Sequence record: PQ850596.1
Reading direction: 5' to 3' (one strand)
Length of the DNA: 43,870 bases
Source of the DNA: Escherichia phage AnnaReinhart_Bas75
Shown: in pieces, positions 10,874 through 17,481 of the stretch
Position numbering within the stretch: the stretch's first letter is position 1
Layout of the letters: the number at the start of each line of letters is the position of its first letter
Position numbers and translations under genes: made by a program
Notes under the pieces: model-generated
What the model saw: the letters and a program-made list of their open reading frames with translations, nothing else
Told to the model about the DNA's origin: nothing
Databases searched by the model: none

Positions 10874-11286
10874 TGGGCTACTTTGAGGACTTAACAAAAG
10901 CGTTCGATGTTCCGCTGGTAGCCTTCGGAACCGCCAACGGCATCAAGGTTGCGCTTGAAAACATCGACGCGCCGACGTCAACCGATACGCCGTATCTGGC
11001 GAGTTACATGCTACTGGCAGATACCGAGCAGGCGGATTTGTTCTTCACTGAGCAACGCTCTGGTATTTATCAGGTAGACATTAACTACGCATCGGTGAAA
11101 GGTAGCGCGCCAATCAATAAAATGGCAGACTTACTTAACACGGCGTTTAAAGCAGGTAAGTCATTTTCGCGTAACGACATCTGCGCCGAGGTTCAATCGG
11201 TTAGCCTGGGGCCGCTGATTGTAGAAAACGGATGGGCCAAACGACCATTGTCAATTAACTTTATTGCATTCACCAAGAGGCTGTGA
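10873..11286 (+). CDS. putative tail terminator / tail completion protein (137 aa)
   Basis: Position immediately upstream of the major tail protein gene; start overlaps previous stop. Confidence 0.45.
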   Translation: MGYFEDLTKAFDVPLVAFGTANGIKVALENIDAPTSTDTPYLASYMLLADTEQADLFFTEQRSGIYQVDINYASVKGSAPINKMADLLNTAFKAGKSFSRNDICAEVQSVSLGPLIVENGWAKRPLSINFIAFTKRL

Positions 11287-11288
11287 AT

Positions 11289-12455
11289 ATGGCTACAACT
11301 CCTTTTAAGGGCGCGAATACCGCGCAATTCTATGTGGCGGAAACTACCCCTGGCGTAACACCGACTAACCCGGTATGGTCGCCGTTGCGTAACACGGGCG
11401 GCGTTCCCGCTGTAACCCGCGATGCACTGACTTCCAACGAACTGGACGGCAGCCGTGAAACTACATCCATCCGAACCGGTAACAAGCAGGTTAGCGGGGA
11501 GTATGCCATCGAACTTAGCTCTCGTAGCCAGGATGATTTCCTTGCGGGAGCGATGACTTCTACGTGGCAAGCTGGGGTAGAGATTACTGGCGCCGGAATT
11601 ACGGTCGCCCCAGCAGGTAAAACATTCACCCGCGCTGCCGGTAGCTTCATTACTGACGGTGTAGAAGTTGGCGACCTTATTGCGTTCACCGACTTAACCG
11701 GCGACAACGCAAAACCGTTTATCGTGACCGCGGTTTCCGCTCTGGTAGTTACGGGCGCAGGTATTCAACACACGCTGACAGCAGAGACAGTAACCACTGA
11801 CGCAAAAACTGGCGACAAGCTGGAAACCGGTAACGCGTGTAAGACGTTCTCCATCCTGACGTGGTTCAAGGGCCAGTGTGGTAACCCGGACGCGTACATG
11901 CTGACCAAAGGTGTGGAAATCTCTGGCTTTACCGTAGAGCAGGCGGTTAACGCCATGGTCACCGGCAGCTTCCCGTTCATCGGCCTGAGTCAGGAGATTC
12001 TTACCGCGCCGCCGTCTGGCTCTGATTTCTCTCAGGTTACGTTCACCGATGAGCCGTTCTCGTCGGTAGATGTGTCGGTGTTCGATGGCTCCACGCCGTT
12101 GCGTTGCGATACTCTCACCATCACCAACGACAACGGAGCTTCCGCGCAGTTCGAACTCGGTAACAGTAGCGTGGCGTTCGTCGAACGTGGACGCGCAGCT
12201 AACACATTCTCTATCTCTGGCAAGCTGTACGACATGGCGATGATTCAGAAGTTTATCAACGAGCAGCAGGTAGAGATTAACTCTATTCTGGCAGGGGTAA
12301 ACGGGGCTATGTCTTTCAGTTTGAAACGTGCAGAGCTTACGGCGGTTACACCTGAGATTGGTGGGCCTGAGTCAATCACTCAGTCCATTGAAGGCCAGGC
12401 TACCGGCAATCAGTACCAGTCGTCTATCGTAATTCAACGTATCACCTACGCATAA
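11289..12455 (+). CDS. major tail protein
   Basis: 389 aa, Thr/Gly/Ala-rich; AAGAGG RBS; followed by strong terminator; located upstream of chaperone-tape measure genes. Confidence 0.6.
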   Translation: MATTPFKGANTAQFYVAETTPGVTPTNPVWSPLRNTGGVPAVTRDALTSNELDGSRETTSIRTGNKQVSGEYAIELSSRSQDDFLAGAMTSTWQAGVEITGAGITVAPAGKTFTRAAGSFITDGVEVGDLIAFTDLTGDNAKPFIVTAVSALVVTGAGIQHTLTAETVTTDAKTGDKLETGNACKTFSILTWFKGQCGNPDAYMLTKGVEISGFTVEQAVNAMVTGSFPFIGLSQEILTAPPSGSDFSQVTFTDEPFSSVDVSVFDGSTPLRCDTLTITNDNGASAQFELGNSSVAFVERGRAANTFSISGKLYDMAMIQKFINEQQVEINSILAGVNGAMSFSLKRAELTAVTPEIGGPESITQSIEGQATGNQYQSSIVIQRITYA

Positions 12456-12483: not shown

Positions 12484-12714
12484 TCACTCATCAATATTAC
12501 TTCGATACTCCCGTAACTTCTCCAGACTTTCAATTGCTTCTGCTAAGTCGGTTCCGGTGTCCTTATGCCCGCGAAGACCCATGCACAATAACTTCTTCAA
12601 TGCGTGCTGTAGTGCGGGGTCACGGATGTCGAAGGCACGGAGAACATCGTAAACGTCTACGGTCATAGTGCTGCCGTGAGTGTTTGTCATTGTTCGGTTG
12701 TATTTTGAAGTCAT
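12484..12714 (-). CDS. hypothetical protein (76 aa), last gene of minus-strand insert
   Basis: Start overlaps stop of phosphoesterase gene; no recognisable motif. Confidence 0.5.
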   Translation of the reverse strand: MTSKYNRTMTNTHGSTMTVDVYDVLRAFDIRDPALQHALKKLLCMGLRGHKDTGTDLAEAIESLEKLREYRSNIDE

Positions 12715-13841
12715 CCCAGCATCTCCGGTGAAATAGTTAAACGTGCGACCTCGCCATATTCGGCGCTATAAGTAATTACATTTGCACTACGGCCTGACAT
12801 CCACCCGCCGCGGGAGGCATAGGCGTCTTTAGCCGCTAAGGTGCGGTGTTGCTCAACAATCATGTTACGGCTTTCTACAATCTTCTGGTGGTGCAGGTGG
12901 CCTACGTGGGCGTAGCTATAGACACTCTCACCGAACGCTTTGCGGAATTTGGCAATCATAACCGGTTCGATAGCATCGAATCGCGCCTTATGCCCGTGGT
13001 GAAAGAACAACGTCGTTTTTCCGTGTTGCACCATCTTGTAAACATCCGGCGACGTATCGACAATCACTCGGCTGTCGTTCGAATATAAAACTGTGAACAT
13101 TTCAGCCAGCCATACAGAGCCTACAGGGTCATGGTTCCCCTGTACGATAAGCAAGCGAACATTTTTATGTTTAACCAGTGCCATATCTACAACACGGCGT
13201 ACCATACGAATCATGTAGCGGACGAGTTTCTGGTAGCGAGTGTCTGCGTCCAACACGTGACGCGACTCAGGTGTAACGGCATCCAGACTATCGAAGTGCG
13301 CGAAATCACCCAGCAGGTTAATAACTCCTGTTCCTGCATCCGGTGCTTTCTGAAACGCCGCGTCGAACCAACGAGAGAACAGGTCTTCCGCAATCTTTAT
13401 ATCCCAGTCGTCGCCGCTCTCGTCGGCCCAGGCAAGCATACCGAGATGGAAATCAGATACCGTGTAAAGATTGAGTAGCTTGTCGTCGCGTTTGGCTCGA
13501 GTCGCTTTAGCCGGCGCAACTGGCGTAATCTCTGACTTCATGCCTTCAATCACGGCTTTCATCAACTCGACCTGACGTTCAGCGTCGGTGTCTGTCTTAA
13601 CCCATTGCAACTTAGTATTGCCGAACTCGTCTACCAGAGACGACGTCCCTTTAATCTTGTAGCCGTCTGGGACAAGGTGGCTAACGTCACGCCCGTGGCC
13701 TACACCTTTCTTAGCCAGCTTCGCTTTACGGATACGAATAACTCGGTCTGAGATGCCGTATTTACGGGCGATGTCTACATTCTTCATCCCGGCGTTCAAT
13801 TCTTCCTGTAACTGTTCGTCGGTTATTTTCTTCTGGGCCAT
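12711..13841 (-). CDS. HTH domain fused to calcineurin-like metallophosphoesterase
   Basis: 376 aa; N-terminal HTH-like segment (KNVDIARKYGISDRVIRIRKAKL); C-terminal phosphoesterase motifs in order: SDFHLG (D-x-H), GDFAHFD (GD-x-x-D), GNHD, then His-rich HHGH and GHLHH. Confidence 0.7.
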   Translation of the reverse strand: MAQKKITDEQLQEELNAGMKNVDIARKYGISDRVIRIRKAKLAKKGVGHGRDVSHLVPDGYKIKGTSSLVDEFGNTKLQWVKTDTDAERQVELMKAVIEGMKSEITPVAPAKATRAKRDDKLLNLYTVSDFHLGMLAWADESGDDWDIKIAEDLFSRWFDAAFQKAPDAGTGVINLLGDFAHFDSLDAVTPESRHVLDADTRYQKLVRYMIRMVRRVVDMALVKHKNVRLLIVQGNHDPVGSVWLAEMFTVLYSNDSRVIVDTSPDVYKMVQHGKTTLFFHHGHKARFDAIEPVMIAKFRKAFGESVYSYAHVGHLHHQKIVESRNMIVEQHRTLAAKDAYASRGGWMSGRSANVITYSAEYGEVARLTISPEMLG

Positions 13842-13906
13842 GCTTACTTCCTCGTGTTTAGGATTTGTCCTATTTAACCACAGTGGATTCCTTTAAATAA
13901 AGGCAA

Positions 13907-14233
13907 CTATTTACTTTCTGCGCCTATCGCCCACCCTGTCATTACCATTTGCAGACGGGTGGCTGTCAGTAGGCTATAGAAAGCATCTCCGTTTTTCTCT
14001 ACCGAACGTATCACTGTGTAGGTTACGGCCTGCGGGGGTAGGCCCGATTTACCAACCTCCACGGCGGCCTCACACTCGCGAACTGTAGAGTCCTTGAACG
14101 CCTTTACAATAGTAGGGTCGGCTTTATCAAGCACACCAGAAGTCATAAGAACAGATTCACTAAATACCTGTTCGCACGGGGCTCCAAAAGTAGCAAAAGA
14201 CATAAAACCCAGAGCTAGTACTAATTTACGCAT
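13907..14233 (-). CDS. secreted/periplasmic small protein (108 aa) with N-terminal signal peptide
   Basis: MRKLVLALGFMSFATFGA signal-peptide-like N-terminus; GAGGA RBS; first gene downstream of early-type promoter 14262..14290. Confidence 0.55.
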   Translation of the reverse strand: MRKLVLALGFMSFATFGAPCEQVFSESVLMTSGVLDKADPTIVKAFKDSTVRECEAAVEVGKSGLPPQAVTYTVIRSVEKNGDAFYSLLTATRLQMVMTGWAIGAESK

Positions 14234-14261
14234 AATTATTTCCTCAGTAAGTTACATGTGA

Positions 14262-14290
14262 ATAGTACCCTATTATATTGGGGTGTGCAA
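14262..14290 (-). promoter_or_regulatory. sigma70-like promoter TTGCAC-N17-TACTAT with AATAG-N4-CTATT palindrome
   Basis: Identical 29-bp core to 5139..5167; drives minus-strand cassette 14233..12484. Confidence 0.6.
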
Positions 14291-14397: not shown

Positions 14398-14814
14398 ATG
14401 AAACTTTCTGATTTCTATTTTGCCGACCGCCACGCCGCCGGTACTAAAATGCCTATCCTTCTGCCCAGTGGTAAAGATTCCGGTGAATGGTTGCAGGTCA
14501 TCGGCCCCGATTGTGACGCTGGTGTTCGTGCGGGCCGTGCCTACACAACGGCAATTCGACGCCTTACGGAAGAACTTGCGCCATTAGATAAAGAGTGCGA
14601 GGCGCTGAATAACTGGGCGCGCTATAATGATGAGAAGGGCTGGCGGGTGATGGACCTGAACAAGCAGCTTGCCGTGGAAATCGTCACCGGTTGGTCATTC
14701 GACGAACCATTCAGCAAAGAGGCGCTTGCTAACCTGTTCGACCAGTACAGTGGGTTGGCAGAGGCCGTAGTTAAGCATCACACCGATAGCCGTGAGAAAC
14801 TCTCGGAAAAGTAA
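14398..14814 (+). CDS. tail assembly chaperone (gpG-like)
   Basis: 138-aa ORF directly upstream of tape measure; downstream ORF in -1 frame overlaps its end (see frameshift feature). Confidence 0.65.
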   Translation: MKLSDFYFADRHAAGTKMPILLPSGKDSGEWLQVIGPDCDAGVRAGRAYTTAIRRLTEELAPLDKECEALNNWARYNDEKGWRVMDLNKQLAVEIVTGWSFDEPFSKEALANLFDQYSGLAEAVVKHHTDSREKLSEK

Positions 14815-15176
14815 AAGCGCTGTATGAATTTGCGCAATGGTGCTTTGTCGACCGCCACAAACGTAAGCAATTCGACGACATCGCGGCGGGCCACCAGGCG
14901 GCTTTGATTGCAATGGGCGTGATTAAAGAACCGCAGATGAAAGAAGCGACGGGGCCGGAATGCCCCGTTTCTCTTATCGACGTGTTCGAGAAATACCGTG
15001 CCATTAAATTCCTACAGCGCGAAACAGATGATACTATCGTTATAATCCCGCGCGATGCGCTCAAATGGCAAGATTTGGTAGCGTTTCGTGATGTCGCCGG
15101 TTACGGCATAAGTTTGTTCGAAGCCGAGGTTATCATGGGCTTAGACGGAATATTTGAGGGCAGAGAAGATGGCTGA
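14398..15176 (+). CDS. tail assembly chaperone frameshift fusion (gpGT-like), requires -1 shift near 14805..14811
   Basis: -1 frame opens at 14796 (after TGA 14793-14795) and runs to 15176; zero frame stops at 14812; candidate slippery heptamer G GAA AAG at 14805-14811. Fusion ends where tape measure starts. Confidence 0.55.
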
Positions 15177-17481
15177 TACGGCTTCCCTAATTGCCAGAGT
15201 AAAAACAGAAGGCGCTGATGTAGCCGCTAAACAGCTTGACGCTATGGCGGCATCCGCAGACCGTGCGGACACATCCGTAAACAAACTAACGCCGGATGTT
15301 AATAAAGTAAACTCCGCTACGTCTAAAGCGGCTTCTGACGGTTTCGCTAAATTCCGTAACGCCGCCGGGCAGGTAGGCTTCCAGGTGCAGGACATGGTCG
15401 TCCAGTTGCAGTCCGGCACGTCTGCATTCGTAGCAATCGGGCAACAAGGCTCTCAGCTTGCGGGTGCTTTCGGCCCTGGTGGTGCGGTGCTTGGGGCTGT
15501 AATTGCTCTTGCGTCAGCTATCGGTGGCGTCTTGTACAAATCGCTAACAGAGGCGGAGGGGAGTTCAAAAGACCTCGAAGCCGCGCAGAAACAGTTAAAA
15601 GACACCTTCCAGCAAACAGCATCCGGCTCTCTCGAACTGACAGACGGCCTTATCCAGCTTACCCAAATCAGCCGAGAAGCGGCGGAGACTCAGCTCGCTC
15701 TGGCTAAGGCTAACGCAGACCTTATCGCGCAGCAAACAGCTAAAGCCGTTCGAGAGGACGCAGAATCATGGGAGACATGGAAAGCCTCCACAGCATCGGC
15801 TATTAGCCAGTATGATGCGCTGGTTTCTAAGGGTGCTGATGTAGGCGACACGTTAGAAAAACTCGGTGGCACTTACGAGGGTAATATCGTAGGCGTCAAC
15901 ATGCTGGCACAGAATATAGCAGAGCTTAGTAGTAAGTTCGGGGTTAACCGTGACCAGGCGCTGGAGATGATAGCGGCACAGAGCGCGTTTAATAAAGAGC
16001 CGACCGCTGAGAATGCCCGCCGCATCGCCGATGTGTTTACCGACTGGCTTGGTAACACTAAGCAGTTGAACCCGGAACTTATCCGCCTGACAGACAACGC
16101 CAACAAAAACGCCACGGCGCTGGAAAACGCAGAGAAGTCGGCAAACGCGGCGGCGGAGGCTCAAAAGAACCTCGGTCGTAACGTTAACTCAACCACGCAG
16201 AGATTCCAGGAACAGAACGAAGCTATCGTCAAGAATCAGCAAATCGCCATCTTAAGCGACCGTGAGCGTATCAGGGCACAAGCTGAACTGGATAAGCAGG
16301 CGTTCGCTAAACGTGAAGCTGTCACCAAAGAACAGATAGCCGCGTATAACGCTGCCCGTGACGCGGAAGCGCAGCAAGACATAGCTCGCATTGACAAGAC
16401 CGAGAAAGAGAAGGCAGACCGCGAGGCTAAATCGAACGAGAAACGTCTGGCGGCGCAGGCCAAACGCGAAGAAACGGCGGCGCAACGTCAGAAAAAAGCG
16501 GCGGAAGATTTCCTCGCTACTGTCGACCGAACAACCGGAGACGAAATTTCTCGCATCACGGCGGCAGAAGAGCAGAAACTGGCGAAACTTGAAGAGTTTA
16601 ACCGCGCCGGAACAATAAGCCAGCAGCAGTACGAAAACGCCAAAACGCAGATTATGCTCACCGCCGAGCAGGCCCGACAGGAAGAACTGGATAAGAAAAG
16701 AAAAGAAGCCCAGGAAAAGCAGCAGAAAGGCGACGACTTCATGGCACAGATTATGGGCCAGAACGCTACTGAGCTTGAGCTTCTCGACATCCAGGAACAG
16801 CAGAAGCTGGCGGTCGCGGATAAGTATCGAGAGCAGGGGCTTATTAACGAGGAACAGTATCAGGCGGCACTTAACGCTATAAATGAGCAGTATGCTACGA
16901 AGCGCGCCGACGCTTTAGGTAATTCTTTCGGTGACATGGCGGCTAATGCTAAAACAGCATTTGGCGAGGCGTCCACCGCGTATAAAGCGTTTGCTATCGC
17001 ACAGGCAACTATCGCCACGTACACATCGGCTATCGAGGCATATAAGTCAACGGCTGCCATCCCTGTTGTCGGCCCATTCCTGGCGCCGGTTGCTGCGGCT
17101 ACTGCCGTTGCCGCGGGGCTGGCTAATATCGCCAAAATCCGCTCGGCGCGTGAGCAGGGCGGGCAGTTATCCGCCGGGCAGGCTTCTACTATCGCAGAAC
17201 GCGGTAAACCAGAAGTTATTATGCCTGCTGGTGCATCGCGAGTACGCACTGCACAGCAGATGAAAGAAATTATGGGGCAAAACGGGTCTTCTTCCGGCCC
17301 ATCTAATGTTACCATCGTAAACAACACGAGTTCTCAAATCGGCAACGTATCCACTGAGCAAGATGATGAAGGCCGTTTGCGTATCATCATAGAAGAGCAA
17401 GTTGCTGCATCTTTGCAGAACAGCAACAGCAAGATTAGCAAGGCCCGCAAAGCCACAAGAAATGCGCCGGGGTTTAAATAA
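15169..17481 (+). CDS. tail tape measure protein
   Basis: 770 aa from ATG 15169 (ORF opens at TTG 15154); Ala/Gln/Glu-rich coiled-coil character; hydrophobic Gly/Ala-rich segment (AFGPGGAVLGAVIALASAIGG); largest gene of the tail block. Confidence 0.8.
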   Translation: MADTASLIARVKTEGADVAAKQLDAMAASADRADTSVNKLTPDVNKVNSATSKAASDGFAKFRNAAGQVGFQVQDMVVQLQSGTSAFVAIGQQGSQLAGAFGPGGAVLGAVIALASAIGGVLYKSLTEAEGSSKDLEAAQKQLKDTFQQTASGSLELTDGLIQLTQISREAAETQLALAKANADLIAQQTAKAVREDAESWETWKASTASAISQYDALVSKGADVGDTLEKLGGTYEGNIVGVNMLAQNIAELSSKFGVNRDQALEMIAAQSAFNKEPTAENARRIADVFTDWLGNTKQLNPELIRLTDNANKNATALENAEKSANAAAEAQKNLGRNVNSTTQRFQEQNEAIVKNQQIAILSDRERIRAQAELDKQAFAKREAVTKEQIAAYNAARDAEAQQDIARIDKTEKEKADREAKSNEKRLAAQAKREETAAQRQKKAAEDFLATVDRTTGDEISRITAAEEQKLAKLEEFNRAGTISQQQYENAKTQIMLTAEQARQEELDKKRKEAQEKQQKGDDFMAQIMGQNATELELLDIQEQQKLAVADKYREQGLINEEQYQAALNAINEQYATKRADALGNSFGDMAANAKTAFGEASTAYKAFAIAQATIATYTSAIEAYKSTAAIPVVGPFLAPVAAATAVAAGLANIAKIRSAREQGGQLSAGQASTIAERGKPEVIMPAGASRVRTAQQMKEIMGQNGSSSGPSNVTIVNNTSSQIGNVSTEQDDEGRLRIIIEEQVAASLQNSNSKISKARKATRNAPGFK

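What the first reader, a model, noticed from the sequence alone, without database searches (positions are those of the whole stretch)
14796..14811. Programmed -1 frameshift site joining the two tail assembly chaperone ORFs
The chaperone ORF stops at 14812-14814, while the -1 frame is open from 14796 through 15176, ending where the tape measure gene begins. The shift must occur within 14796-14811, where G GAA AAG (14805-14811) resembles the lambda G-T slippery site G GGA AAG. A conserved frameshift at this position is well established for siphovirus tail assembly genes; the exact slip site here is my inference.
Basis: partly seen in the sequence, partly recalled or inferred. Interest (0 to 1): 0.5.

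Follow-up and report, generated by a model that had tools for sequence, protein, structure and literature searches.

The report
Tail-chaperone frameshift with long-range RNA helix
This is the expected ribosomal -1 frameshift that makes a longer version of a phage tail-assembly chaperone, but it uses a minimal A_AAG slip site next to the stop codon and appears to be helped by a previously undescribed RNA helix that starts 5 bases downstream and pairs with sequence about 190 bases away.

Summary
The chaperone ORF (14398-14814) stops at TAA 14812-14. The -1 frame is open from 14796 to 15176 and has no start codon before 14904. The window is a Kagunavirus (identical here to BASEL phage Bas73). The fused 259-aa product is already annotated in RefSeq K1H and in fFiEco02, but not in Bas73, and one genome paper on a relative states there is "no canonical slippery sequence".

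Ninety-four distinct relatives show that the conserved element is not a lambda-like heptamer. It is the tetranucleotide A_AAG, with a variable preceding codon (GAA, GCA, GTA, GGA, AAA, CAA) and a stop codon directly after it in 93 of 94. The 31 start-less codons after the site are under purifying selection only in the -1 frame.

New here: GCGCUG, always 5 nt after the AAG, is frozen at wobble positions. It pairs with CAGCGC about 190 nt downstream (window 14817-14832 with 15005-15020), or at +129 in another sub-clade. There are compensatory changes, and RNAalifold recovers the helix de novo. A_AAG is reported to need a strong 3' stimulator in E. coli, so this helix is the likely stimulator. 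That role is inferred and untested.

The parts
14398..14814 (+). G-like tail assembly chaperone ORF (138 aa), frame 0, stop TAA 14812-14814
   Evidence: Pfam Phage_TAC_4 1e-8; PHROG 15027 positions 1-138, 1.2e-65
14796..14811 (+). Only stretch where frame 0 and the -1 frame are both open (permitted shift window)
   Evidence: TGA 14793-95 closes the -1 frame upstream; TAA 14812-14 closes frame 0
14805..14811 (+). Heptamer context G_GAA_AAG (non-canonical; P-site codon GAA)
   Evidence: In 94 distinct relatives the heptamer is GGAAAAG 62, CGCAAAG 11, GGTAAAG 8, AGCAAAG 5, GGGAAAG 2, GGCAAAG 2, TGTAAAG 2, AAAAAAG 1, CCAAAAG 1
14808..14811 (+). A_AAG tetranucleotide slip site: tRNA-Lys moves from AAG (14809-11) to AAA (14808-10)
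   Evidence: Invariant in 94/94 distinct relatives. A_AAG is the most shift-prone tetramer in E. coli (PMC4066793)
14812..14816 (+). 5-nt spacer UAAAA, whose first three bases are the frame-0 stop codon
   Evidence: Spacer length is invariant. The stop is adjacent to AAG in 93/94. The Val codon that overlaps it is GTA in 92, GTG+A in 1 and GTT in 1
14817..14832 (+). 5' arm of the long-range helix (GCGCUGUAUGAAUUUG); encodes A-L-Y-E-F in the -1 frame
   Evidence: Inverted repeat I2. GCG and CTG codons are frozen in 43/43 while 23 other conserved degenerate columns vary. Paired with probability 0.96 in a 400-nt fold
15005..15020 (+). 3' arm of the long-range helix (UAAAUUCCUACAGCGC); encodes K-F-L-Q-R in the -1 frame
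   Evidence: 90.7% of cells paired in 48 sequences with covariation. Recovered de novo by RNAalifold. The Arg codon CGC has 0 bits of synonymous entropy against 2.2-2.4 for other Arg columns
14817..15020 (+). Structured ~204-nt RNA domain closed by the helix
   Evidence: Fold of 14812-15030: -79.8 kcal/mol against -62.9 +/- 4.5 for shuffles, z = -3.8, 0 of 200 shuffles fold as well
14811..15176 (+). T segment read in the -1 frame after the shift (G14811 is re-read: GTA AAA GCG ... TGA 15174-76). The fusion is 259 aa with junction ...LSEK|VKALYEF...
   Evidence: Pfam Phage_TAC_18 9.5e-18; PHROG 15027 positions 138-259
15169..17481 (+). Tape measure protein gene; its ATG overlaps the T stop by 8 nt
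   Evidence: PHROG 1538 2.8e-194; Bas73 annotation

Best explanation
A minority of ribosomes translating the chaperone gene shift back one base at A_AAG (14808-14811). The single E. coli tRNA-Lys (anticodon UUU) decodes AAG (14809-11) and re-pairs with AAA (14808-10). Translation then continues GTA AAA GCG CTG ... in the -1 frame to TGA 15174-76. This gives a 259-aa G-T fusion (...LSEK-VKALYEF...), while unshifted ribosomes terminate at once at TAA. The site is a tetranucleotide (Z_ZZN) site rather than a lambda-type heptamer, because re-pairing of the P-site tRNA is not conserved. A tetramer alone is barely shifty, so the shift is probably driven by an RNA helix whose first base pair lies 5 nt after the AAG. 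That helix is 14817-14832 paired with 15005-15020 (15 pairs, one mismatch, about -18 kcal/mol), and it closes a ~204-nt folded domain. It would sit at the mRNA entrance of a ribosome holding GAA in the P site and AAG in the A site. The adjacent stop codon is itself under selection and may add a second chance to slip (Lys-tRNA in the P site, slow termination). Shown here: ORF geometry, coding constraint in the -1 frame, invariance of A_AAG, of the 5-nt spacer and of the stop, and conservation and covariation of the helix. Inferred: that the helix stimulates shifting, the efficiency (probably a few percent), and the role of the stop.
For: Geometry. Homology of both halves to tail assembly chaperones, with a PHROG profile spanning the junction. 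Fused CDS annotated in K1H RefSeq and fFiEco02. The -1 frame is coding from the first codon after AAG: pN/pS 0.37 against 1.49 and 1.49, wobble entropy 1.28 against 0.59, and no conserved start (L016, L028 and L029 have none in 42 codons). A_AAG in 94/94 distinct relatives down to about 44% identity; P-site codon variable (GAA 62, GCA 18, GTA 10, GGA 2, AAA 1, CAA 1). Nucleotide-level constraint 3' of the site: only V139 GTA, A141 GCG and L142 CTG are frozen among 26 invariant degenerate columns. Helix in the window: inverted repeat; MFE closing stem with z = -3.8; pairing probability 0.96 in a 400-nt fold, mean 0.89 over 34 clusters. Helix in relatives: +203 helix 90.7% paired in 48 sequences against 24-49% when slid; 17 double-change cells against 3.4 +/- 1.6 (0/500); pair 21/208 shows U-A 20, C-G 8, G-C 3. 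+129 helix 92.6% paired against 5-57% when slid. L096 has GCGUUG paired with CAACGC, a compensatory change; L068, L012, L074, L111 and L102 keep pairing through G-U. In the +129 group CAGCGC stays exact in a different codon phase while the amino acids vary. RNAalifold de novo returns only this helix. A helix of at least 8 bp is anchored 4-5 nt after AAG in 94% of 34 clusters, against 9.5% for arbitrary anchors; at least 13 bp in 35% against 0.09%. [quoted passage not shown] The NNA_AAG class and the single tRNA-Lys of E. coli: PMC5009743.
Against: No experimental evidence exists for the fusion protein or for any effect of the helix. A closing helix with a 170-190-nt loop is unusual for a bacterial frameshift stimulator and may form slowly behind translating ribosomes. 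Both arms lie in conserved protein motifs (A-L-Y and K-F-x-Q-R), so part of the conservation is due to the protein. Covariation is modest: 3 covarying pairs in the +203 group and 2 cells in the +129 group. The sequences are phylogenetically related, so the shuffle controls overstate significance. L079 has a weakened helix (12/15 with two internal mismatches). Four of 34 clusters have pairing probability below 0.5. A short local fold is not special (z = +0.67). In this particular phage, G_GAA_AAG allows partial P-site re-pairing (G-U at the middle position), so a tandem slip cannot be excluded.
Confidence: 0.8

Rival explanations
1. Lambda-type tandem slippage on the heptamer G_GAA_AAG: both the P-site tRNA-Glu (GAA to GGA) and the A-site tRNA-Lys (AAG to AAA) re-pair, and the heptamer alone is sufficient.
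For: GGAAAAG differs from lambda's GGGAAAG by one base and is the commonest variant (62 of 94). Two relatives carry GGGAAAG itself and one carries AAAAAAG. GAA to GGA keeps positions 1 and 3 and gives G-U at position 2 (sequence reasoning).
Against: The P-site codon is not conserved. GCA (18 sequences, in contexts CGCAAAG, AGCAAAG and GGCAAAG) and GTA (10) cannot re-pair in the -1 frame. Even the best V_VVA_AAG heptamers give only about 0.3% without a stimulator in E. coli (PMC4066793). This model does not explain the frozen 3' motif and helix.
Confidence: 0.15
2. 'Shifty stop' route: the ribosome translocates normally, so Lys-tRNA sits on AAG in the P site with UAA in the A site. Slow termination lets the peptidyl-tRNA slip to AAA, and GUA is then read. 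The product is identical.
For: A stop codon directly follows AAG in 93 of 94 relatives. The overlapping Val codon is held as GTA (92) or GTG+A (1), although any Val codon would serve the protein. This shows selection for an adjacent stop.
Against: L066 has AAG UUA UAG (stop one codon later) yet keeps A_AAG, the 5-nt spacer and the helix. The 5-nt spacing of the helix fits AAG in the A site, not the P site. UAA and UAG are efficiently terminated in E. coli (general knowledge, not tested here). This route could act as well as, rather than instead of, the A-site route.
Confidence: 0.25
3. No frameshift: the downstream ORF is translated on its own, from TTG 14904, or from CTG 14820 as annotated in Bas73.
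For: Bas73 annotates a separate 118-aa CDS starting at window 14820. PHROG 4557 and Pfam PF23812 are modelled on such stand-alone ORFs. The Shashou paper states there is no canonical slippery sequence (PMC6776780).
Against: 14820 is CTG. TTG 14904 is not conserved. L016, L028 and L029 have no ATG/GTG/TTG in the first 42 codons. Protein conservation and purifying selection start at the codon directly after AAG, 31 codons upstream of 14904.
Confidence: 0.03
4. The long-range helix is real but has another purpose (mRNA stability, control of tape measure translation, a recombination linker), or it is a by-product of two conserved peptide motifs. On this view the frameshift relies on A_AAG and the stop alone.
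For: Both arms encode conserved residues. Lambda G-T is reported to need little beyond its heptamer (my recollection of Levin et al. 1993; not checked here). The loop is very large for a bacterial stimulator.
Against: Wobble positions are frozen only in the two arms. In the +129 group the partner is exact while the amino acids vary and the codon phase differs. Compensatory changes are present. The 5' arm always starts 5 nt from the slip site, whatever the partner position (+44, +70, +87, +115, +129, +200/203). Tetramer sites need a stimulator (PMC4066793).
Confidence: 0.25
5. Transcriptional slippage by RNA polymerase on the A run produces a -1 mRNA.
For: None beyond the presence of AAAA at 14807-14810.
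Against: The run is only 4 A here and 3 A in the 38 relatives with GTAAAG, GCAAAG or GGAAAG contexts. That is far shorter than the runs of about 7 or more associated with slippage (PMC5009743, general statement).
Confidence: 0.02

Closest known systems
Phage lambda G / G-T tail assembly chaperone -1 frameshift (Levin, Hendrix and Casjens 1993; Xu, Hendrix and Duda 2004; as summarised in PMC5009743)
   Same: Two overlapping ORFs directly upstream of the tape measure gene. The second ORF is in the -1 frame and has no start of its own. The slip is on AAG read by tRNA-Lys. The outcome is an abundant short product plus a rare fusion.
   Different: Lambda uses the canonical heptamer G_GGA_AAG some codons before the G stop. 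Here only A_AAG is conserved, the stop is adjacent, and a conserved 3' RNA helix is present. There is no detectable sequence similarity to lambda G/T; the Pfam families are TAC_4 and TAC_18.
IS3 transposase frameshift cassette: A_AAG tetramer, 5-nt spacer and pseudoknot (PMC4066793; PMC6815119)
   Same: Same tetranucleotide, same 5-nt spacer, and dependence on a strong 3' structure in E. coli.
   Different: The IS3 stimulator is a compact local pseudoknot. Here it is a helix closing a ~200-nt domain, and no pseudoknot is shown. The gene context is different.
IS911 -1 frameshift stimulated by a three-way junction (Rettberg et al. 1999, cited in PMC4066793)
   Same: The stimulator is the base of a multi-branched structure rather than a simple hairpin.
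   Different: IS911 uses A_AAA_AAG plus an upstream Shine-Dalgarno element. Here there is no SD-like element (4 of 34) and the site is a tetramer.
NNA_AAG hexanucleotide sites: B. subtilis cdd CGA_AAG and IS1222 G_CGA_AAG (PMC5009743, section 31)
   Same: Single-tRNA slippage of tRNA-Lys, with the preceding codon only modulating efficiency.
   Different: The cdd event is incidental and depends on an upstream SD. Here the event is conserved, functional, and paired with a 3' structure and an adjacent stop.
E. coli dnaX A_AAA_AAG with upstream SD and downstream hairpin
   Same: tRNA-Lys AAG-to-AAA slippage with a 3' helix about 5-6 nt away. One relative (L082) has A_AAA_AAG plus a local 10-bp hairpin.
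   Different: No SD element, a non-canonical heptamer and a long-range rather than local helix in the window.

Membership tests
Tailed-phage G/GT tail assembly chaperone frameshift (lambda type) | Two overlapping ORFs immediately 5' of the tape measure gene, the second in the -1 frame | tested here: met
   14398-14814 and 14796-15176; tape measure ATG at 15169
Tailed-phage G/GT tail assembly chaperone frameshift (lambda type) | Located between the major tail (tube) gene and the tape measure gene | tested here: met
   The tube protein gene is 11283-12455 (Pfam Phage_tube_2 6.6e-38). However, three minus-strand ORFs (12484-14233) lie between it and the chaperone gene
Tailed-phage G/GT tail assembly chaperone frameshift (lambda type) | Downstream ORF lacks its own start and is under coding constraint from the overlap onward | tested here: met
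   pN/pS 0.37 in the -1 frame only; no conserved start codon
Tailed-phage G/GT tail assembly chaperone frameshift (lambda type) | Canonical X_XXY_YYZ slippery heptamer in the overlap | tested here: not met
   G_GAA_AAG is not X_XXY_YYZ, and relatives carry C_GCA_AAG, G_GTA_AAG and others. More distant homologues do have T_TTT_TTC, T_TTT_TTT or A_AAT_TTT
Tailed-phage G/GT tail assembly chaperone frameshift (lambda type) | Protein homology to tail assembly chaperone families | tested here: met
   Pfam Phage_TAC_4 (35.9 bits, cutoff 21.1) and Phage_TAC_18 (64.6 bits, cutoff 27); PHROG 15027
Tailed-phage G/GT tail assembly chaperone frameshift (lambda type) | Fusion protein detected, and required for tail assembly | not testable with these tools
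   Needs mass spectrometry, a western blot or genetics
Z_ZZN tetranucleotide -1 frameshift cassette with 3' stimulator (IS3 type) | A_AAG in the correct register within the overlap | tested here: met
   14808-14811; present in 94/94 relatives
Z_ZZN tetranucleotide -1 frameshift cassette with 3' stimulator (IS3 type) | Stable RNA structure beginning about 5-8 nt 3' of the motif | tested here: met
   The helix starts 5 nt after AAG. Prediction. Conservation and covariation. Control. The structure has not been probed experimentally
Z_ZZN tetranucleotide -1 frameshift cassette with 3' stimulator (IS3 type) | Frameshift efficiency depends on the structure | not testable with these tools
   Needs a reporter assay with arm and compensatory mutants
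dnaX / IS911 type cassette | Shine-Dalgarno-like stimulator about 10 nt upstream of the slip site | tested here: not met
   An SD-like 4-mer lies within 20 nt upstream in only 4 of 34 clusters
Any curated Rfam frameshift element | Match to a covariance model | tested here: not met
   No hit at E <= 1 in 14600-15300 on either strand

The most novel reading that the evidence does not exclude
The GCGCUG...CAGCGC helix is a genuine frameshift stimulator, and the first defined for a phage tail-chaperone frameshift. It works with a bare A_AAG tetramer and an adjacent stop codon. It is evolutionarily mobile: the 5' arm is fixed 5 nt from the slip site, while the 3' partner has been re-invented at different distances (+44, +129, +203) and in different codon phases in different lineages of Guernseyvirinae-like phages.
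Probability: 0.55. Interest if true: 0.65.

Novelty: new variant of a known kind. Interest (0 to 1): 0.5.

Why it matters
The frameshift itself is textbook and is already annotated in some relatives. It is missing or denied in others: Bas73 has two separate CDSs, one starting at CTG, and the Shashou paper says there is no canonical slippery sequence. The evidence here settles the annotation for a large group of E. coli and Salmonella phages, many used in therapy and biocontrol: join at A_AAG to give a 259-aa product.

It also gives a concrete, testable model for how a non-canonical site can supply the small fixed fraction of fusion protein that tail assembly needs: tetramer, 5-nt spacer, and a long-range helix with natural partner switching. 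Frameshift prediction tools that look for heptamers and local structure would miss sites of this type.

Tried and rejected
- **Local downstream hairpin.** The fold of 14812-14910 is no better than shuffles (z = +0.67). RNAalifold on the first 100 nt of 13 relatives found nothing (-0.1 kcal/mol). Both missed the helix because its 3' arm lies beyond +100.
- **Upstream Shine-Dalgarno stimulator.** Absent.
- **Rfam families.** No match.
- **Solved structures by sequence.** No meaningful hit (best E = 0.44), so structure prediction was not pursued. It would not bear on the frameshift.
- **Independent initiation at TTG 14904 or CTG 14820.** Rejected on conservation.
- **Transcriptional slippage.** Rejected because the A run is too short.
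- **Pairing of GCGCUG with the conserved Trp codon region (the window's local hairpin).** Not conserved in other clades.
- **Literature.** Searches for a described stimulator in tail-chaperone frameshifts, or for this clade's slip site, found only the Shashou remark.
- **Not checked.** I did not inspect the exact join coordinates used in the K1H and fFiEco02 records. Only their length (779 nt, 259 aa) was seen, and it agrees with a join at the AAG.

Full report
**1. The observation.**
- Frame 0 reads ...CGT GAG AAA CTC TCG GAA AAG TAA. The 138-codon ORF 14398-14814 ends at TAA 14812-14814.
- The -1 frame has TGA at 14793-95 and is then open from 14796 to TGA 15174-76.
- That stop overlaps the tape measure start codon (ATG 15169) by 8 nt.
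- The only stretch where both frames are open is 14796-14811.
- The first ATG/GTG/TTG in the -1 frame is TTG 14904.

**2. What the genes are.**
- The upstream ORF matches Pfam Phage_TAC_4 (1e-8).
- The -1 ORF matches Phage_TAC_18 (9.5e-18).
- The next gene is a tape measure protein (PHROG 1538, 2.8e-194), and 11283-12455 is a tail tube protein.
- PHROG 15027 is a 259-position tail assembly chaperone profile. It matches the upstream ORF over positions 1-138 and the -1 ORF over positions 138-259, so fused products are already in the databases.

**3. Where the window comes from, and how relatives are annotated.**
The region is 100% identical to Escherichia phage GertrudWoker_Bas73 and several other Kagunavirus genomes (Guernseyvirinae). 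In all, 223 phage records match. Annotation is inconsistent:
- RefSeq K1H and fFiEco02 carry a two-piece joined CDS of 779 nt (259 aa), described as a 'frameshift product'.
- Bas73 annotates two separate chaperone CDSs. The second begins at window 14820, which is CTG.

**4. Is the -1 ORF translated by frameshifting?**
I collected 50 loci from IMG/VR and 67 from metagenomes. This gave 94 distinct sequences of this clade, down to about 44% amino-acid identity, plus a few more distant homologues.
- In every case a -1 ORF of about 121 codons runs from the end of the chaperone gene to the tape measure gene.
- Protein conservation in the -1 frame starts at the first codon after the AAG (V-x-A-L-Y-x-[FY]-A-x-W...F-D-x-I...H), which is 31 codons before window 14904.
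- Over those 31 codons, pN/pS is 0.37 in the -1 frame and 1.49 in each of the other two frames. Third-position entropy is 1.28 bits against 0.59 at the first two positions. The -1 frame never has a stop.
- No start codon is conserved, and L016, L028 and L029 have none in the first 42 codons.
- Independent initiation is therefore very unlikely, and a -1 shift inside 14796-14811 is the only reading that fits.

**5. Which bases are the slip site?**
Among the 94 distinct relatives the last sense codon is always AAG and is preceded by A. That is, A_AAG is invariant.
- The preceding codon is GAA (62), GCA (18), GTA (10), GGA (2), AAA (1) or CAA (1).
- The heptamers are GGAAAAG 62, CGCAAAG 11, GGTAAAG 8, AGCAAAG 5, GGGAAAG 2, GGCAAAG 2, TGTAAAG 2, AAAAAAG 1 and CCAAAAG 1.
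- tRNA-Ala on GCA or tRNA-Val on GTA cannot re-pair one base back, so the conserved element is the tetramer and not a lambda-type heptamer.
- This matches the known NNA_AAG class (B. subtilis cdd, IS1222, IS3). In that class the sole E. coli tRNA-Lys pairs weakly with AAG and better with AAA (PMC5009743).
- More distant homologues (30-35% identity) use canonical heptamers several codons before their stop: T_TTT_TTC (L049, L051), T_TTT_TTT (L053) and A_AAT_TTT (L052). The frameshift is older than this particular site type.

**6. The adjacent stop codon is selected.**
A stop follows the AAG directly in 93 of 94 sequences (TAG 60, TAA 32, TGA 1). The overlapping -1-frame Val codon is GTA in 92 and GTG followed by A in 1, although any Val codon would encode the same protein. 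The exception, L066, reads AAG TTA TAG and keeps everything else.

**7. A nucleotide-level constraint 3' of the site.**
Across 43 distinct fusion ORFs there are 26 invariant amino-acid columns with four- or six-fold degenerate codons.
- In 23 of them, 3 to 6 synonymous codons are used.
- The only three with a single codon are V139 GTA, A141 GCG and L142 CTG, directly after the slip site.
- The motif GCGCTG sits exactly 5 nt after the AAG in 88 of 94 sequences. The variants are GCGTTG (3), GCGCTC (2) and TCGCTG (1).

**8. The partner.**
A local hairpin does not explain the constraint. Searching further downstream, every representative has the exact complement CAGCGC at one of two places:
- at +203 from the stop, in frame as Gln-Arg codons of a K-F-x-Q-R motif; or
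- at +129, in a different codon phase (xCA GCG Cxx), where the encoded residues vary (A/P/T/I - A - R/Q/P).

In the window:
- the arms are 14817-14831 and 15006-15020 (15 nt, 93% complementary), extended by one G-U pair to 14832/15005 in the MFE structure;
- the duplex energy is -18.3 kcal/mol;
- the fold of 14812-15030 uses the helix as the closing stem of a ~204-nt domain, with -79.8 kcal/mol against -62.9 +/- 4.5 for shuffles (z = -3.8, 0 of 200);
- when 400 nt downstream of the stop are folded, the motif pairs with the +203 partner with probability 0.96.

Over 34 clusters below 90% identity, the mean pairing probability is 0.89, and 30 clusters exceed 0.5.

**9. Comparative tests of the helix.**
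- **+203 group** (48 distinct sequences, positionally homologous alignment A3). 90.7% of cells are paired, against 24-49% when the 3' arm is slid by 1-3 columns. There are 17 double-change cells against 3.4 +/- 1.6 in shuffles (0 of 500). Three pairs covary. Pair 21/208 shows U-A 20, C-G 8 and G-C 3; it links the wobble base of a Tyr codon to the first base of an Ile/Val codon about 190 nt away.
- **+129 group** (38 sequences, A4). 92.6% of cells are paired, against 5-57% when slid, with two double-change cells.
- **Individual exceptions behave as predicted**. L096 has GCGUUG with CAACGC (C-G to U-A). L068 and L069 have GCGUUG with CAGCGC (G-U). L012 (CAGCGU), L074 and L102 (CGGCGC) and L111 (UAGCGC) keep pairing through wobble. 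L079 (GCGCUC) is weakened.
- **Synonymous entropy in the +203 group** is 0 bits at Ala2, Gln68 and Arg69, against 2.2-2.4 bits at three other conserved Arg columns.
- **De novo prediction.** RNAalifold run on A3 returns this helix and nothing else (10 pairs).
- **Internal control.** A contiguous helix of at least 8 bp is anchored 4-5 nt after the AAG in 94% of clusters, against 9.5% for arbitrary anchors in the same ORFs. The figures are 65% against 1.5% for at least 10 bp, and 35% against 0.09% for at least 13 bp.
- **Other partner positions.** Some lineages have further or alternative partners (+44 in L082, L070, L078, L081 and L114; +70, +87, +115), but the 5' arm never moves.

**10. Mechanism.**
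Sharma et al. tested all tetramers in E. coli (PMC4066793).
- Without a stimulator the tetramers are at background (0.147% against 0.112%).
- A_AAG is the best and reaches up to 5.6% with the IS3 pseudoknot.
- Their IS3 cassette has a 5-nt spacer.

The arrangement here is A_AAG, a 5-nt spacer and then a stable helix, which is the same design. With GAA in the P site and AAG in the A site, the first base pair (14817) lies 11 nt from the first P-site base, about where the mRNA enters the ribosome (general knowledge). There is no upstream SD-like element. I therefore propose the following steps:
- a helix-stalled ribosome;
- slippage of tRNA-Lys from AAG to AAA;
- continuation at GUA.

The adjacent stop may give a second opportunity, by P-site slippage during slow termination. 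Alternatively, it may simply release unshifted ribosomes before they enter the helix. This part is inference. The product is the same by either route...LSEK-VKALYEF..., 259 aa. A yield of a few percent would match what lambda needs (G:GT about 30:1, PMC5009743), but the yield was not measured.

**11. Caveats.**
- Nothing here is experimental.
- Both arms lie in conserved peptide motifs.
- The sequences are related, so shuffle-based significance is overstated. The tool itself warns of this.
- A closing helix with a loop of about 170-190 nt is unusual for bacterial frameshift stimulators. The IS911 three-way junction is a partial precedent (cited in PMC4066793).
- The helix could serve another role.

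**12. Novelty and verdict.**
The frameshift is an ordinary member of the G/GT class and is already annotated in some relatives. What is not described in Rfam or in the literature I could search is its architecture in this clade. That architecture is a bare A_AAG tetramer, a selected adjacent stop, and a conserved long-range helix whose 3' partner has moved during evolution. I rate it a new variant of a known kind, with moderate interest.

Noticed in passing
window 14820-15176 (Bas73 CDS Bas73_0027); window 14904: The deposited Bas73 annotation starts the second chaperone CDS at CTG (14820), and PHROG 4557 (118 aa) is built on such calls. Pfam PF23812 (Phage_TAC_18) begins its match exactly at TTG 14904. 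The model therefore seems to start at a spurious gene-caller start and to omit the conserved first 31 residues of the T segment.
   Followed up: partly
window 12484-14233 (minus strand) and 14235-14279: Three minus-strand ORFs sit between the tail tube gene and the chaperone gene, in the opposite orientation to the tail module. They are a 76-aa ORF, a 376-aa metallophosphoesterase / 'DNA repair exonuclease' (PHROG 704), and a 108-aa protein with a signal-peptide-like N-terminus. Back-to-back promoter-like sites lie in the 164-nt gap before the chaperone gene.
   Followed up: no
window 14948-14969: A terminator-like hairpin (GACGGGGCC GGAAUG CCCCGUU followed by UCUCUUAU) lies inside the T coding sequence, over the G-P-E-C-P codons and within the loop of the long-range domain. 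Many relatives have a similar GGGGCC...GCCCC hairpin followed by a T-rich run, but those lacking the GPECP motif do not.
   Followed up: no
L049, L051, L052, L053 (IMG/VR loci): Homologues at 30-35% identity keep the -1 overlap but use canonical heptamers (T_TTT_TTC, T_TTT_TTT, A_AAT_TTT) 6-16 codons before their stop. They lack the AAG-stop-GCGCUG arrangement.
   Followed up: partly
L082:1008-1100; L070, L078, L081, L114: L082 has a dnaX-like A_AAA_AAG heptamer, and its GCGCUGUUUG pairs with CAAACAGCGC only 44 nt downstream (a local 10-bp hairpin, probability 1.00). L078, L081 and L114 carry CAGCGC three times (+44, +122, +203), and L070 carries it twice (+44, +203). This suggests alternative or redundant partners.
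   Followed up: partly
L066:1023-1060: This is the only relative in which the stop is not adjacent to the AAG (AAG TTA TAG). Its Val codon is GTT, and it still has the 5-nt spacing and a 13-bp helix.
   Followed up: yes
window 14873-14896 with 15076-15099, and 14867-14885 with 15051-15069: Two further long inverted repeats (24 nt at 71% and 19 nt at 74% complementarity) link the T coding region to sequence beyond the 3' arm. They were not tested for conservation.
   Followed up: no
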